Positions 16,375 to 53,702 of a DNA stretch of 64,000 bases are shown here, in pieces (positions within the stretch are counted from its first letter, which is position 1; every line of letters begins with the position of its first letter). The position numbers and the translations under genes were made by a program. Location of the stretch: positions 960,001 through 1,024,000 of the forward strand of contig OZ244922.1 in NCBI GenBank assembly GCA_965221905.1, given 5' to 3'. Origin of the DNA: Chloroflexota bacterium. GTDB lineage: Bacteria; Chloroflexota; UBA11872; VXOZ01. The notes beneath the pieces are model-generated. The model made no database searches. It was not told the DNA's origin and saw nothing but the letters and a program-made list of their open reading frames with translations.

Positions 16375-16630
16375 CCGTCCATACTTCGACAAGCTCAGCA
16401 CGAACGGTTCTAGTCAAATTGGGAACGATCCCGTTCGCCCTGAGCTTGTCGAAGGGTGAACGAAACTCTAGCACGTTTCCAGCATGGCGAGCAGCCAGTC
16501 TCGTAGGCAAACACAACTGGAGGAATTGTACATAATGCGCGCCCTCTATTCGAACAATCGCGGTGAAGTCTACTCGTGATAGTGAAAGTCTCTAACCGTT
16601 CGTGCTGAGCTTGTCGAAGCATGAATGGCA
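16375..16630. repeat. Cluster of REP-like TTCGACAAGCTCAG..GAACGG elements in both orientations
   Basis: Copies at about 16384-16407 (+), 16430-16456 (-) and 16596-16620 (-). Confidence 0.8.
16519..16579 (+). pseudogene. Truncated duplicate of the 5' end of the downstream dehydrogenase gene
   Basis: GGAGG RBS plus ATG 16535 encoding MRALYSNNRGEVYS*, nearly identical to 16994-17032 (MRALYSNNRGEIY). Confidence 0.75.
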
Positions 16631-50587: not shown

Positions 50588-51373
50588 ATGCCAATACAGC
50601 TATCTGTGCGCCATGTGCTCCACGAACCGAATCCGCCGCACCTGCCGTATCGGGAAGAGCACTTCGGCTACGTGCACCTTCCGGTAAGTATTCCGCCGGA
50701 GCAGGCGGCGCTGGTGCTGGTGGACTGCTGGGACCAAATCATCGTCGAGAGCTTTCAGGAGCGCGCCGAACGGATTTGCGAGACGACGATCCGCCCGGTA
50801 TTGGAGGCGTCGCGGTCGGTTGGCATGACGGTAGTTCACGCACCGTCGCCGCCGGTGGCTGAGAAGTTTCGCCAGTTCCGGCCGCCGGGTGCGGCGGACG
50901 GGGAAGCGCCGGTAATATCAGACAGGCAGGATTGGCCTCCCCCCGAATTCGCTCAACGCCAAGGGGAATGGGCGCACCTACAGGCCCGGCGCAGCGGCCT
51001 GCACCAGGAGCAACTCGACCGCATCGACCGTGACCGCTCCATCCATCCGGCGGTGTTGCCGCAGTCAGGCGACTACGTCATAGCCACCGGCGATCAACTC
51101 CACCGTCTCTGCCGCGAGCGCGGCATTCTCTACCTCATCTACGTGGGTTTTGCCACCAATATCTGCGTGCCGGACCGCGATTACGGCATGCGCGCCATGC
51201 GCGATCGCGGCTATGCGCTGGTGCTGCTGCGTGACGCCACCACCGGCGTCGAGGCTGGCGACACATACCCGATACTTGCAGCCACTAGTGTGATGATCCA
51301 TCAATTTGAGTTGCGGGACATCGCGGGGACGATAACGTCCGATGCGTTCTTGGCTGCCATCGAGGATTTGTGA
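50588..51373 (+). CDS. Isochorismatase-like cysteine hydrolase
   Basis: ALVLVDCW, YVGFATNICV and LLRDATT. Confidence 0.85.
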   Translation: MPIQLSVRHVLHEPNPPHLPYREEHFGYVHLPVSIPPEQAALVLVDCWDQIIVESFQERAERICETTIRPVLEASRSVGMTVVHAPSPPVAEKFRQFRPPGAADGEAPVISDRQDWPPPEFAQRQGEWAHLQARRSGLHQEQLDRIDRDRSIHPAVLPQSGDYVIATGDQLHRLCRERGILYLIYVGFATNICVPDRDYGMRAMRDRGYALVLLRDATTGVEAGDTYPILAATSVMIHQFELRDIAGTITSDAFLAAIEDL

Positions 51374-51387
51374 AAAGGATATCCATT

Positions 51388-51443
51388 CATCCTTCGACAG
51401 GCTCAGGACGAACGGATAAAGACTGTTTTGACGGAGTATTCGT
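51388..51443. repeat. Intact REP-containing unit equal to the empty IS110 target site
   Basis: CATCCTTCGACAGGCTCAGGACGAACGGATAAAGACTGTTTTGACGGAGTATTCGT; the second copy is split between 51482-51500 and 52653-52689. Confidence 0.92.
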
Positions 51444-51515
51444 ACTTGGTTTCCCTAAGGGGGTGTAGGTCAGTATCCTTACATCCTTCGACAGGCTCAG
51501 AAACTGTCTTGGGTG

Positions 51516-52469
<954 letters not shown>

Positions 52470-52480
52470 CTATGGCTGGC

Positions 52481-52636
52481 GCTCCCATGCAGTCCCTGCC
52501 TTACGGATACGGACTTCGTGTCCCGGTAACTGTTCGGGCTCTGGGGGAGCTCGGCAGGTGTGGCGACCACTCTGAGCCACGGTCTGCCAGACCTAGGACG
52601 AACCGGTCTGCCACGCCTGCTCCCATTCTATCTCCC
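52481..52636 (-). ncRNA. Predicted IS110 bridge RNA (5' end approximate)
   Basis: Two stem/internal-loop modules; guides GTTCGTCCT (52603-52595) and GGCTCAG (52578-52572) match the target; ACAGTT (52533-52528) and GTAAG (52504-52500) match the donor junction. Confidence 0.88.
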
Positions 52637-52778
52637 TTTTCCAAGATATAAGGACGAACGGATAAAGACTGTTTCGACGGAGTATTCGTTCTTCCGTTTG
52701 TGATGAGCACTTCGACAAGCTCAGCGCAGGCTTGACGAACCATGAACGGCGATTGCCCTAGAGCTTCCCACATGCGTT

Positions 52779-53702
52779 CTAAGATGCAGCACTTTCCAGC
52801 CAGCGCACGAATCCCTCCGAGCACCAGTACGCCGGGTCACTCTCCGCCAGCGCGATCCATTCGTCTACAACCGGTCTAATGCGCATGTAGCGCAAGCGGG
52901 CGGAACCGATCGTGCCGTAGCGCAGCAAGCCCTTTTCCGCGAAGAGTTCTTCCGCGATCAGGCGCTTGTCGGTGCCGATGCCGGCCCAGATGCCTGGGCG
53001 CGTCCAGCCGCGCACCTGCGCGAGCAGGGCCTCACGCCGGTCGGGCGCGGCGCGCGCCAGCGCCCGGTGGGCGAGGTGCGTTTCGACAAAGTGCACCATG
53101 GTCAGGCGCTGGCAGTTGACGCCGATAAGACAGTAGAAGACGTTCCAGTCGTAGAGCCGCTGCCAAGGGCTTTCTGCGGCGAACGCGCCAGGGCCCCAAG
53201 GACTCTCACGCAGTCCCGCTCTAGCGTGATGCGCGGTGAGTGCTGCGGCCCGCGCTCCGATGGCGGCCACCGAGTGGGTGTAGTGGTTGCTGCGCTGCGC
53301 TTCCGGTCGTTGGCGGAAGGTTTCCGGTATCAAGCCGCAGTACGTGGGTGTAGTTGCGATGTCCCAGAAGTCCCACACGCGGCGTTTCTCGCGCTCCTTG
53401 CGCCACTGGCTCAGCGTCGGCACGGCAACGGTCCCGGCAGGACCCACCGCGTCTAGAAAGCCGTCGATCACGGCCTCCGCGCCGCCTTCCACAGTTCCCA
53501 TGCTGCTCAATGAGCTATGGAACATCGCGGTATCGCCTTGGCGAAGGCCAACTTCGCGCAGCGCGGCGGCAATCGCTGCCCGCGTGACCCGAACTGACGG
53601 ATCGCCCGGCTCGTGGTCCATGTAGCCCCCGGCGGTTGCCTGCACCTCTACGACAGCCTTTAGCCGTTGGGCGGCGCGCTCTGCGCTATCCCTTGACCCC
53701 AC
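52779..53702 (-). CDS. AAC(3)-family N-acetyltransferase
   Basis: FHSSLSSMG.VEGGA, GTVAVPT, GLIPETFR, RSNHYTHSVAAIG and TMVHFVE. Confidence 0.88.
   Translation of the reverse strand: MGSRDSAERAAQRLKAVVEVQATAGGYMDHEPGDPSVRVTRAAIAAALREVGLRQGDTAMFHSSLSSMGTVEGGAEAVIDGFLDAVGPAGTVAVPTLSQWRKEREKRRVWDFWDIATTPTYCGLIPETFRQRPEAQRSNHYTHSVAAIGARAAALTAHHARAGLRESPWGPGAFAAESPWQRLYDWNVFYCLIGVNCQRLTMVHFVETHLAHRALARAAPDRREALLAQVRGWTRPGIWAGIGTDKRLIAEELFAEKGLLRYGTIGSARLRYMRIRPVVDEWIALAESDPAYWCSEGFVRWLESAAS

What the first reader, a model, noticed from the sequence alone, without database searches (positions are those of the whole stretch)
52481..52652. IS110 non-coding end encodes a readable bispecific bridge RNA programmed for this genome's REP repeat
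Seen: on the element (minus) strand the target is GTTCGTC-CT-GAGCC and the rejoined ends (donor) are ACAGTTT-CT-TATAT. The ~200-nt region upstream of the recombinase folds into two modules. Module 1 has stem GCAGGCGTGGC(A)GACC/GGTCGCCACACCTGC, enclosing GTTCGTCCT (exact 9-nt match to left target plus core), hairpin GGTCT-ggc-AGACC and GGCTCAG (exact reverse complement of core plus right target). Module 2 has stem GCTCCC/GGGAGC, enclosing ACAGTT (left donor), hairpin GGAC-acgaa-GTCC and GTAAG (complementary to the right donor CTTAT with one wobble). Established: this is the architecture of IS621-type bridge RNA-guided recombinases. Inference: this is a compact (311 aa) member with a target specificity different from IS621. 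The mechanism class is published, but this ortholog and its guides may be undescribed.
Basis: partly seen in the sequence, partly recalled or inferred. Interest (0 to 1): 0.92.

Follow-up and report, generated by a model that had tools for sequence, protein, structure and literature searches.

The report
IS110 element with readable bridge RNA
This is an intact, recently active IS110-family insertion sequence whose upstream non-coding RNA carries guides matching both its repeat target and its own ends, so it is a clear but ordinary new example of the bridge-RNA recombinases described since 2024.

Summary
Window 51499-52652 (minus strand) is a 1154-bp IS110-family element. It has a 311-aa DEDD/Ser recombinase gene and, upstream of it, a two-loop RNA gene. 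The genome holds six copies, five identical and one with a single difference, all inserted at CT inside one REP-like hairpin repeat.

The first loop carries GTTCGTCCT, which equals the left target plus core. It also carries GGCTCAG, the reverse complement of core plus right target. The second loop carries ACAGTTAC and GTAAG, which match the element's rejoined ends.

A covariance model found this RNA upstream of the recombinase genes of relatives in nearly all loci searched. Stems show compensatory changes. The five non-core right-target-guide bases are exactly complementary to the flank in 52 of 77 non-redundant elements, against 0.4% of mismatched pairs. Handshake bases pair with the opposite substrate in 73 of 75 elements for each loop. 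A TTGACA-17-TATCTT promoter exists only across the circle junction.

The protein matches IS621 and ISCro4 structures and NCBIfam "IS110 family RNA-guided transposase". It is a new member of a well-mapped kind, not a new mechanism. No call shows the RNA itself or any recombination.

The parts
51499..52652 (-). Whole IS110-family element, counted with the CT core at both junctions (1154 bp). There are no terminal inverted repeats.
   Evidence: Six copies in the own genome, five identical and one with a single C>T difference, all with the same boundaries.
52653..52659 (-). Left target half GTTCGTC (host REP, 5' arm of the hairpin).
   Evidence: Four of six copies have GTTCGTC and two have GTTCGCC.
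52651..52652 (-). CT core at the left junction.
52643..52648 (-). TATCTT, putative -10 box in the left end. It overlaps the right donor half TATAT (52646-52650).
   Evidence: The same hexamer sits at the same place in 53 of 75 non-redundant homologues.
52490..52621 (-). Bridge RNA core as matched by covariance model R1 (both loops).
   Evidence: 117.2 bits, E 5e-23, the only match in the window.
52554..52620 (-). Target-binding loop module: outer stem, internal loop and inner hairpin.
   Evidence: Helix 1 has 15 pairs, 9 of them with compensatory changes.
52595..52603 (-). Left target guide GTTCGTCCT.
   Evidence: Identical to the left target plus core in 9 of 9 positions.
52572..52578 (-). 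Right target guide GGCTCAG. The AG that follows (52571-52570) is at the handshake position.
   Evidence: Reverse complement of CT+GAGCC in 7 of 7 positions.
52481..52550 (-). Donor-binding loop module: outer stem GCTCCC/GGGAGC, closing stem CCC/GGG, internal loop and inner hairpin.
52525..52533 (-). Left donor guide ACAGTTACC.
   Evidence: Matches ACAGTTTCT at 7 of 9 positions. Position 9 matches in only 16% of 77 homologues. IS621's left donor guide is 8 nt.
52500..52504 (-). Right donor guide GTAAG. The GC that follows (52499-52498) is at the handshake position.
   Evidence: Pairs with CTTAT through four Watson-Crick pairs and one G.T. IS621 has an analogous G.T pair.
51516..52451 (-). Recombinase gene, 311 aa (RuvC-like DEDD domain plus Tnp domain with conserved Ser).
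   Evidence: PF01548 and PF02371. NF033542 at 224.8 bits. IS621 and ISCro4 structures at E 1e-42 to 1e-44. D8, E52, D94, D97 and S232 are invariant in 17 sequences.
51514..51519 (-). TTGACA, putative -35 box in the right end, overlapping the stop codon.
   Evidence: Forms TTGACA-17-TATCTT only when the ends are joined. TTGAC sits at that distance in 36 of 49 homologues.
51501..51507 (-). Left donor half ACAGTTT, followed by the CT core at 51500-51499.
51494..51498 (-). Right target half GAGCC (loop of the host REP hairpin).
51378..51422 (-). Unoccupied copy of the REP target (contains GTTCGTCCTGAGCC), about 85 nt beyond the right end.
   Evidence: Exact match. Folds as a 14-pair DNA hairpin with z = -4.19.

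Best explanation
Window 51499-52652 (minus strand) is an intact IS110-group insertion sequence that moves by bridge-RNA-guided recombination, as IS621 does.

Inferred cycle:
1. The element excises as a circle. Joining the right and left ends at a single CT creates a sigma-70-type promoter, with TTGACA in the right end and TATCTT in the left end.
2. This promoter drives a roughly 150-170-nt RNA that runs into the recombinase gene region.
3. The first internal loop of the RNA holds the target. [quoted passage not shown]
4. The second loop holds the joined ends. [quoted passage not shown]
5. Recombinase dimers on each loop form a tetramer and cut after CT with the conserved serine. They exchange top strands, helped by the handshake bases: A after the right target guide pairs with donor T7, and G after the right donor guide pairs with target C7. 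They then resolve the junction.

The target lies at the stem-loop boundary of a REP-like hairpin. The genome has 214 units of this repeat core, 10 free exact sites and 51 free sites that differ by a U:G-compatible T>C.

Shown here: the anatomy, the copies and their sites, homology, and covariation.
Inferred: transcription, circle formation and catalysis.
For: 1. Copies and sites. The genome holds six copies, five identical and one with a single difference. All lie in CCGTTCG(T/C)C-CT-GAGCCTGTCGAAGG.
- 4 of 14 exact sites are occupied, against 2 of 53 GTTCGCC sites (Fisher p = 0.015).
- 0 of 52 GTTCGTG sites are occupied.

2. Protein.
- PF01548 and PF02371 both match.
- NF033542 'IS110 family RNA-guided transposase' scores 224.8 bits against a cut-off of 140.
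- There are full-length matches to ISCro4 (E 1.6e-44) and IS621 (E 2.4e-42) chains.
- D8, E52, D94, D97 and S232 are invariant in 17 relatives. They correspond to the DEDD and Ser residues named in PMC11208158.

3. RNA structure.
- On 22 sequences with 26 pairs, 94.2% of cells are paired, against 36-46% when partners are slid.
- 13 pairs have changes on both sides, and 0 of 500 shuffles reach the observed score.
- Model R1 found 103 matches in 100 sources. Almost all are full length and lie just upstream of the recombinase gene on its strand.

4. Guides.
- Among 80 non-redundant guide pairs, the 5 non-core right-target-guide bases are the exact complement of the right flank in 52 of 77, and at least 4 of 5 match in 63 of 77. 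Among 5,798 cross pairs the exact fraction is 0.36%.
- The left target guide matches on average 4.5 of 7 positions, against 2.4 for cross pairs.
- Permutation gave 0 of 2000 for both guides. The set holds 53 distinct right targets.
- With the right end located through the right target guide alone, the left donor guide (positions 1-7) equals the 7 nt before the core in 39 of 49. This includes the variants ACGGTTG, ACAGGTG, ACAGCTG, ACAGTCG and ACGGATA.

5. Handshake positions. The base after the right target guide pairs with donor position 7 in 73 of 75. The base after the right donor guide pairs with target position 7 in 73 of 75.

6. Promoter. TTGACA-17-TATCTT (10 of 12) is present only across the joined ends. 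No promoter-like site was found at any of the six integrated left junctions, and none in window 51350-52800.

7. Natural retargeting. Sister elements in the same genus (72-78% protein identity) sit in a different repeat...GGCC-CT-CTCCC, and carry GGCCCT and GGGAGAG in the corresponding loops.
Against: - No call shows the RNA, a circle junction or a recombination product. All support is comparative.
- The minimum-free-energy fold is not significantly more stable than shuffles (z = -1.38).
- The left donor guide mismatches its own donor at positions 7 and 9, and the outer target-loop stem has a C.A mismatch.
- Across the family, the two outermost left-target-guide positions match the flank in only 34-38% of elements. 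The 9-of-9 match here is therefore better than the family norm and is partly a feature of this copy.
- In 25 of 77 elements the right target guide is not an exact complement. Some of these are probably my boundary or register errors, but that was not checked one by one.
- Relatives share ancestry, so the permutation figures overstate independence.
- The right end was located through the left donor guide. That is circular for the donor test. It was repaired only for the 49 loci.
Confidence: 0.93

Rival explanations
1. The element belongs to the bridge-RNA class but is now silent in this genome. The copies are fixed relics and the RNA is not made from integrated copies.
For: No sigma-70-like promoter was found at any of the six integrated left junctions or in window 51350-52800. 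The abstract of PMC13626964 reports weak bridge RNA expression from integrated IS621 and excision less efficient than insertion.
Against: The six copies differ at only one base in 1154 and all reading frames are intact. That points to recent movement. Ten exact free targets remain. The promoter scan covers only one promoter type.
Confidence: 0.12
2. The upstream region is mainly a leader that controls recombinase expression, for example through an antisense RNA of the sX15 type. On this view the matches to target and ends are incidental.
For: Rfam sX15 matches the opposite strand at 52474-52629 (43.9 bits, below the gathering score of 55). In Xanthomonas both strands of a homologous region give Northern-confirmed RNAs (PMC3300014, passages).
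Against: Incidental matches would not covary with 53 different right targets or with donor variants. No promoter-like site was found on either strand in this window region. A regulatory antisense RNA would not exclude guide function.
Confidence: 0.03
3. The guide-like strings are a captured fragment of the REP repeat inside the element, or a chance match.
For: The genome is rich in this repeat: 214 cores.
Against: The two strings lie on opposite strands relative to the REP. They are separated by a conserved hairpin and sit in conserved positions of a structured RNA. In homologues from other genomes the same positions carry the sequences of quite different flanks.
Confidence: 0.01

Closest known systems
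IS621 (Escherichia coli) bridge recombinase and bridge RNA (PMC11208160, PMC11208158)
   Same: - Same domains and catalytic residues.
- RNA gene in the left end, upstream of the recombinase gene.
- Two internal loops with the same strand rule.
- A 9-nt left target guide and a left donor guide that in effect covers 8 nt.
- A G.T pair in the right donor guide.
- Handshake bases, a CT core, a promoter split across the joined ends, and a REP-type target.
- The donor ends begin with the same ACAGT.
   Different: - Only distantly related in protein sequence (phmmer E 2.4e-42 over residues 4-305).
- 311 aa against 326 aa.
- A 7-nt right target guide here. For IS621, PMC11208158 gives G77-G80, which is 4 nt.
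- Target GTTCGTC-CT-GAGCC against ATCAGGCCTAC.
- A mismatch at left donor guide position 7, conserved in this clade.
- I did not align the two RNAs directly.
ISCro4 transposase (PDB 9t56)
   Same: Best match among solved structures (E 1.6e-44, residues 4-305).
   Different: 341-residue chain. I saw only the entry name and the alignment. Its RNA was not compared.
ISPpu10 / ISPpu9 of Pseudomonas putida (bioRxiv 10.64898/2026.03.19.712850, abstract only; PMC12288879, search listing only)
   Same: IS110-family elements whose insertions all fall in one repeated intergenic palindrome. For ISPpu10 the target's stem-loop is reported as a second specificity layer. Here the target also straddles a hairpin.
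   Different: Different host phylum and different target. Whether the hairpin matters here is untested.
IS1111-group seekRNA elements (PMC11187229, abstract in the search listing only)
   Same: Related DEDD transposase with RNA-guided site choice.
   Different: I recall, from no call, that IS1111-group elements carry the RNA gene downstream of the transposase gene and have subterminal inverted repeats. Here the RNA gene is upstream.
Rfam RF02234 sX15 and asX7 of Xanthomonas plasmid pXCV183 (PMC3300014)
   Same: Homologous sequence and structure. Model R1 hits pXCV183 at 116394-116525 on the minus strand with 79.6 bits.
   Different: sX15 is on the strand opposite to the bridge RNA sense. asX7 (116528-116459, minus strand) covers only the first loop module. 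No intact IS110 recombinase gene was evident next to it (not tested with Pfam).

Membership tests
IS110 family, IS110 group (bridge-RNA recombinases, IS621 type) | Recombinase with an N-terminal RuvC-like DEDD domain and a C-terminal Tnp domain. | tested here: met
   PF01548 (E 2.7e-21) and PF02371 (E 1.7e-19). NF033542 at 224.8 bits against a cut-off of 140.
IS110 family, IS110 group (bridge-RNA recombinases, IS621 type) | Catalytic D, E, D, D and Ser conserved. | tested here: met
   D8, E52, D94, D97 and S232 are invariant in the 17-sequence alignment A2. The alignment to ISCro4 places GIDVS, LEATG, KTDAIDA and SG in register. The IS621 residues are named.
IS110 family, IS110 group (bridge-RNA recombinases, IS621 type) | No terminal inverted repeats, and a shared 2-nt core (usually CT) at both junctions instead of a longer duplication. 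| tested here: met
   CT is at both junctions of all six copies. Among homologues CT is at the left junction in 69 of 73 and at the right junction in 76 of 77. Inverted repeats were judged by eye only.
IS110 family, IS110 group (bridge-RNA recombinases, IS621 type) | Structured RNA gene in the left end, upstream of and co-oriented with the recombinase gene. | tested here: met
IS110 family, IS110 group (bridge-RNA recombinases, IS621 type) | First loop: the 5' side equals the left target plus core, and the 3' side is the reverse complement of core plus right target. These covary across orthologues. | tested here: met
   9 of 9 and 7 of 7 positions match here. Exact right-target-guide complement in 52 of 77 homologues, with 0 of 2000 permutations reaching the observed sum.
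IS110 family, IS110 group (bridge-RNA recombinases, IS621 type) | Second loop matches the joined element ends. | tested here: met
   Left donor guide 7 of 9 and right donor guide 4 plus one G.T here. Exact left donor guide (positions 1-7) in 39 of 49 homologues with an independently located right end.
IS110 family, IS110 group (bridge-RNA recombinases, IS621 type) | Handshake bases pair with the non-cognate substrate at position 7. | tested here: met
   73 of 75 for each loop. Watson-Crick pairing with the cognate substrate occurs in only 4 of 71 and 5 of 79.
IS110 family, IS110 group (bridge-RNA recombinases, IS621 type) | Promoter assembled across the right-end/left-end junction of the circle. 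| tested here: met
   TTGACA-17-TATCTT is found only in the joined form. This is a pattern match only.
IS110 family, IS110 group (bridge-RNA recombinases, IS621 type) | The RNA is expressed and binds the recombinase. | tested here: inconclusive
   Public RNA-library contigs were laid. See Tried and rejected.
IS110 family, IS110 group (bridge-RNA recombinases, IS621 type) | Recombination requires the RNA, and specificity follows the guides. | not testable with these tools
   This needs a recombination assay.
IS1111 group (seekRNA) | RNA gene downstream of the transposase gene, and subterminal inverted repeats (recalled, from no call). | tested here: not met
   The only R1 match is upstream. Only 15 nt lie between the stop codon and the right core.
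Rfam RF02234 (sX15) | Score at or above the gathering threshold of 55 bits on the modelled strand. | tested here: not met
   43.9 bits, on the strand opposite to the recombinase gene.

The most novel reading that the evidence does not exclude
This Chloroflexota clade may be a naturally 'handshake-tuned' and repeatedly retargeted bridge system. Two observations suggest it. First, its left donor guide keeps a conserved mismatch at donor position 7, while the handshake A of the target loop reads that same T after strand exchange. That could favour strand exchange, much as the engineered post-handshake RNAs do for IS621. Second, within one genus the same element lineage has switched between two unrelated host repeat families by coordinated changes in both target guides. 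If this is true, the clade would be a compact (1.15 kb, 311 aa) orthologue set in which evolution has already shown the route of reprogramming.
Probability: 0.25. Interest if true: 0.45.

Novelty: new member of a known kind. Interest (0 to 1): 0.3.

Why it matters
It adds a clean, apparently active bridge-RNA element from a poorly studied phylum. The closest named relatives are Chloroflexota and Dehalococcoidia genomes assembled from metagenomes. All four guides, both handshake bases and the junction promoter can be read directly from the sequence.

The comparison within the genus shows natural reprogramming between two repeat families. This illustrates how these elements change targets, and it gives matched guide-target pairs for testing.

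It does not change the understanding of the mechanism. Automated annotation already assigns the protein to the RNA-guided transposase family.

Tried and rejected
1. RNA evidence. One search for public runs listed 24 runs, 2 of them on record as RNA (X18 and X19, labelled sponge metagenome, holding 0.46 and 0.39 of the sampled words). I laid X18, X19, X5 and X6 on window 51200-52950.
- The RNA-library contigs (4 and 5 laid, all at least 99% alike) cover parts of the recombinase reading frame (51515-51853 and 52016-52411) and the REP flanks.
- No contig of these two runs lies on 52412-52705, which holds the RNA gene.
- Contigs cannot show absence, strand or ends, and DNA may be present in such libraries. 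So this says nothing either way about the RNA.
- No contig bridged an empty site cleanly. The two 'joints' that skip about 1200 nt carry 14 and 36 foreign letters between the sides, with sides of 22 nt or less. I read these as other REP copies.

2. Thermodynamic folding of the 201-nt left end gave the expected two modules, but z was only -1.38. I rejected this as evidence on its own.

3. The RNAalifold consensus did not recover the outer donor-loop stem. A duplex-energy comparison gave only a weak signal: own pairs averaged -10.5 kcal/mol, and 988 cross pairs averaged -8.0.

4. Rfam (E-value mode, 1601 nt) returned only sX15, below threshold and on the opposite strand, plus a chance ilvB-OMG match. 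No match to a bridge RNA family came up.

5. Literature.
- (asX7, sX15, bridge RNA, IS110; at least 2 terms): I saw 12 of 52 papers, and none of them holds sX15 or asX7 together with the other terms. The remaining 40 were not seen.
- One search was badly framed and returned only Chloroflexota papers.
- ('bridge RNA' with 'Chloroflex') found one preprint. Its single Chloroflexota mention concerns another RNA cluster.
- Supplementary tables of PMC11208160 and later mining papers may list this orthologue.

6. I did not align this RNA with the IS621 RNA itself, because no IS621 locus was fetched.

7. I did not predict structures or complexes. Homology to solved structures made that unnecessary.

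Full report
THE ELEMENT

On the minus strand of the window, a 311-aa reading frame (51516-52451) carries the two Pfam domains of IS110-family transposases: PF01548 (E 2.7e-21) and PF02371 (E 1.7e-19). NCBIfam places it in NF033542, 'IS110 family RNA-guided transposase', at 224.8 bits against a cut-off of 140. Among solved structures it matches ISCro4 (9t56, E 1.6e-44) and IS621 (8wt6, E 2.4e-42) over residues 4-305. In an alignment with 16 relatives, D8, E52, D94, D97 and S232 are invariant. The passages I read of PMC11208158 name D11, E60, D102, D105 and S241 as the IS621 active site.

BOUNDARIES, COPIES AND TARGET

A search of the window's own 3.52-Mb genome with 51499-52652 found six copies. 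Five are identical and one has a single C>T difference. All six have ...CCGTTCG(T/C)C-CT-TATATC... on the left and ...ACAGTTT-CT-GAGCCTGTCGAAGG... on the right. So the element sits at a CT inside one repeat. Four copies have GTTCGTC and two have GTTCGCC.

The genome holds 214 units with the core CTGAGCYTGTCGAAG. It has 10 free exact 14-mers GTTCGTCCTGAGCC and 51 free GTTCGCCCTGAGCC.
- Occupancy is 4 of 14 for exact sites against 2 of 53 for GTTCGCC sites (Fisher p = 0.015).
- None of 52 GTTCGTG sites is occupied.
- A T>C change in the top strand leaves a U:G pair with the guide, which fits the two tolerated sites.

A free repeat copy about 85 nt beyond the right end folds as a 14-pair DNA hairpin (z = -4.19). 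The left target half lies in its 5' arm and the right half in its loop.

THE RNA

Exact coordinates are in the parts list.

The single-sequence fold gives the two modules but is not significantly stable (z = -1.38). The evidence is comparative. I collected relatives in two ways.
- From 41 genomes of the same genus and class, 22 had a match.
- From the genome collection, 80 loci were kept out of 555 confirmed. Most are Dehalococcoidia and Chloroflexota genomes assembled from metagenomes. Some are Nitrospirota, Gemmatimonadales, Methylomirabilota, Actinoplanes and Oxalobacteraceae.

On 22 hand-picked distinct upstream regions, a 26-pair structure has 94.2% of cells paired, against 36-46% when the partners are slid. 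Thirteen pairs have changes on both sides, and 0 of 500 shuffles reach the observed covariation score. A covariance model built from this alignment found 103 matches in the 100 sources I gave it. That was 100 of the 117 I held; duplicates and two others were left out. Almost all matches are full length and lie directly upstream of the recombinase gene on its strand. Only one lies in the window (52490-52621, minus strand, 117 bits).

GUIDES AGAINST FLANKS

I located left ends by a conserved left-end motif and right ends by the left donor guide. I then compared target guides with flanks.
- Six matches with incomplete loops were dropped and identical guide sets were collapsed, leaving 80.
- The five non-core bases of the right target guide are the exact complement of the flank in 52 of 77, and at least 4 of 5 match in 63 of 77. 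Among 5,798 cross pairs the exact fraction is 0.36%.
- The seven non-core bases of the left target guide match on average 4.5, against 2.4 for cross pairs.
- None of 2000 permutations reached either observed sum.
- There are 53 different right targets in the set.
- The match is weakest at the two outermost left-target-guide positions (34-38%).

Because the right end had been found through the donor guide, I repeated the donor test with right ends located only through the right target guide. That was possible for 49 loci with one exact hit. The left donor guide (positions 1-7) equals the seven bases before the core in 39 of the 49, including minority donor variants.

Position 9 of the left donor guide matches in only 16% of elements. 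This agrees with the 8-nt left donor guide of IS621. The G of GTAAG opposite T corresponds to the non-canonical G161:dT12 pair reported for IS621.

HANDSHAKE BASES AND PROMOTER

PMC11208158 describes two bases after each 3' guide that pair with position 6-7 of the other substrate after strand exchange.
- Here the base after the right target guide is A and donor position 7 is T.
- The base after the right donor guide is G and target position 7 is C.
- Across homologues each of these pairs forms in 73 of 75 elements. Pairing with the cognate substrate is rare: 4 of 71 and 5 of 79.

Joining the ends in a script gives TTGACA-17-TATCTT (10 of 12). None of the six integrated left junctions gives a promoter-like site, and neither does the window region. 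TTGAC stands 19 nt before the core in 36 of 49 homologues, and TATCTT after the core in 53 of 75. PMC11208160 mentions that truncating the IS621 joined ends removed the -35 box of its natural promoter.

NATURAL RETARGETING

In the same genus, elements with 72-78% protein identity (L010, L011, L013, L032) lie in ...GGCC-CT-CTCCC... and carry GGCCCT and GGGAGAG in the two target-guide positions. L009 and L030 lie in the same repeat as here, and their guides track its T/C variants. The second target is itself a repeat: CCTCACCNNNGCCCTCTCCC occurs 17 to 51 times in each of five genomes of the genus, 27 times in the own genome, and never when the pattern is read backwards.

WHAT IS NOT SHOWN

No call shows the RNA, the circle or recombination. 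The public RNA-library contigs cover only parts of the recombinase gene (see Tried and rejected). Relatives are not independent, so the permutation figures are generous. Boundary finding was automatic and its misses were not inspected individually.

COMPARISON AND VERDICT

The element meets every testable defining feature of the IS110-group bridge-RNA systems, with IS621 as the type. It differs from IS621 in target, in a longer right target guide (7 nt against 4), in a conserved mismatch at left donor guide position 7, and in being 15 residues shorter.

The class is well mapped.
- PMC11208160 analysed 5,511 ncRNA-target pairs.
- A 2026 preprint clusters bridge RNA loci genome-wide.
- REP targeting is described for ISPpu9 and ISPpu10.

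I therefore rate it a new member of a known kind.

Noticed in passing
window 52474-52629 (+); L117 1895-2026 (-), which is pXCV183 116394-116525: Rfam family RF02234 (sX15, a Xanthomonas sRNA) is the reverse complement of an IS110 bridge RNA. My model R1 hits pXCV183 on the minus strand with 79.6 bits. That is the strand of asX7 (116528-116459), which covers the first loop module. sX15 (116378-116536, plus strand) is its antisense. Both were Northern-confirmed in 2011, and 10 homologues were noted in Stenotrophomonas maltophilia K279a (PMC3300014). I found no paper linking them to bridge RNAs among the 12 of 52 listed.
   Followed up: partly
L010, L011, L013, L032 flanks; own genome, 27 sites: A second repeat family, CCTCACCNNNGCCCTCTCCC, occurs 17-51 times per genome in the genus. 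It is the target of sister elements with matching guides. The own genome has the repeat but no element of that specificity was found.
   Followed up: partly
window 52779-53702 (-): The gene just upstream of the element's left end encodes a 307-aa protein of the aminoglycoside 3-N-acetyltransferase family (PF02522, E 2.5e-43). The insertion lies in the REP about 125 nt past its stop codon. The other neighbours are an isochorismatase-domain protein, an aldo/keto reductase and an Ldh_2 family protein.
   Followed up: no
window 16383-16620: A cluster of three diverged units of the same REP family on both strands (2-3 mismatches to the 25-nt probe).
   Followed up: no
own clade: window, L009, L010, L011, L013, L030, L032: The left donor guide has A where the donor has T at position 7 (ACAGTTA against ACAGTTT). 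This mismatch is conserved in the clade, while most relatives match there.
   Followed up: partly
L026, L027 (G016, G013): Distant relatives (42-44% identity) show TT at the left junction but CT at the right junction, and their left target guide ends in TT. The core at the left junction is TT in 3 of 73 non-redundant elements.
   Followed up: no
L039, L064, L085, L110: These loci have two model matches each, on opposite strands or at unexpected distances. L110's protein match spans 1266 nt instead of about 920. This may reflect nested or adjacent elements, or an insertion in the gene.
   Followed up: no
L025 (G019), L028 (G033): These are decayed copies. The G019 matches have 1 TGA and 2 TAG inside the frame. 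L028 lacks the stretch between the first loop and the end of the second loop.
   Followed up: no
window 52664-52677 (-), left flank: The host repeat unit contains AAACAGTCTTTATCC about 20 nt before the insertion site. This faintly resembles the element's joined ends (ACAGTTT-CT-TATATC). It is probably chance. No site within one mismatch of the joined 14-mer exists in the genome.
   Followed up: no
runs X18, X19: Contigs of two RNA libraries that the tool labels sponge metagenome carry pieces of the recombinase gene that are at least 99% identical.
   Followed up: partly
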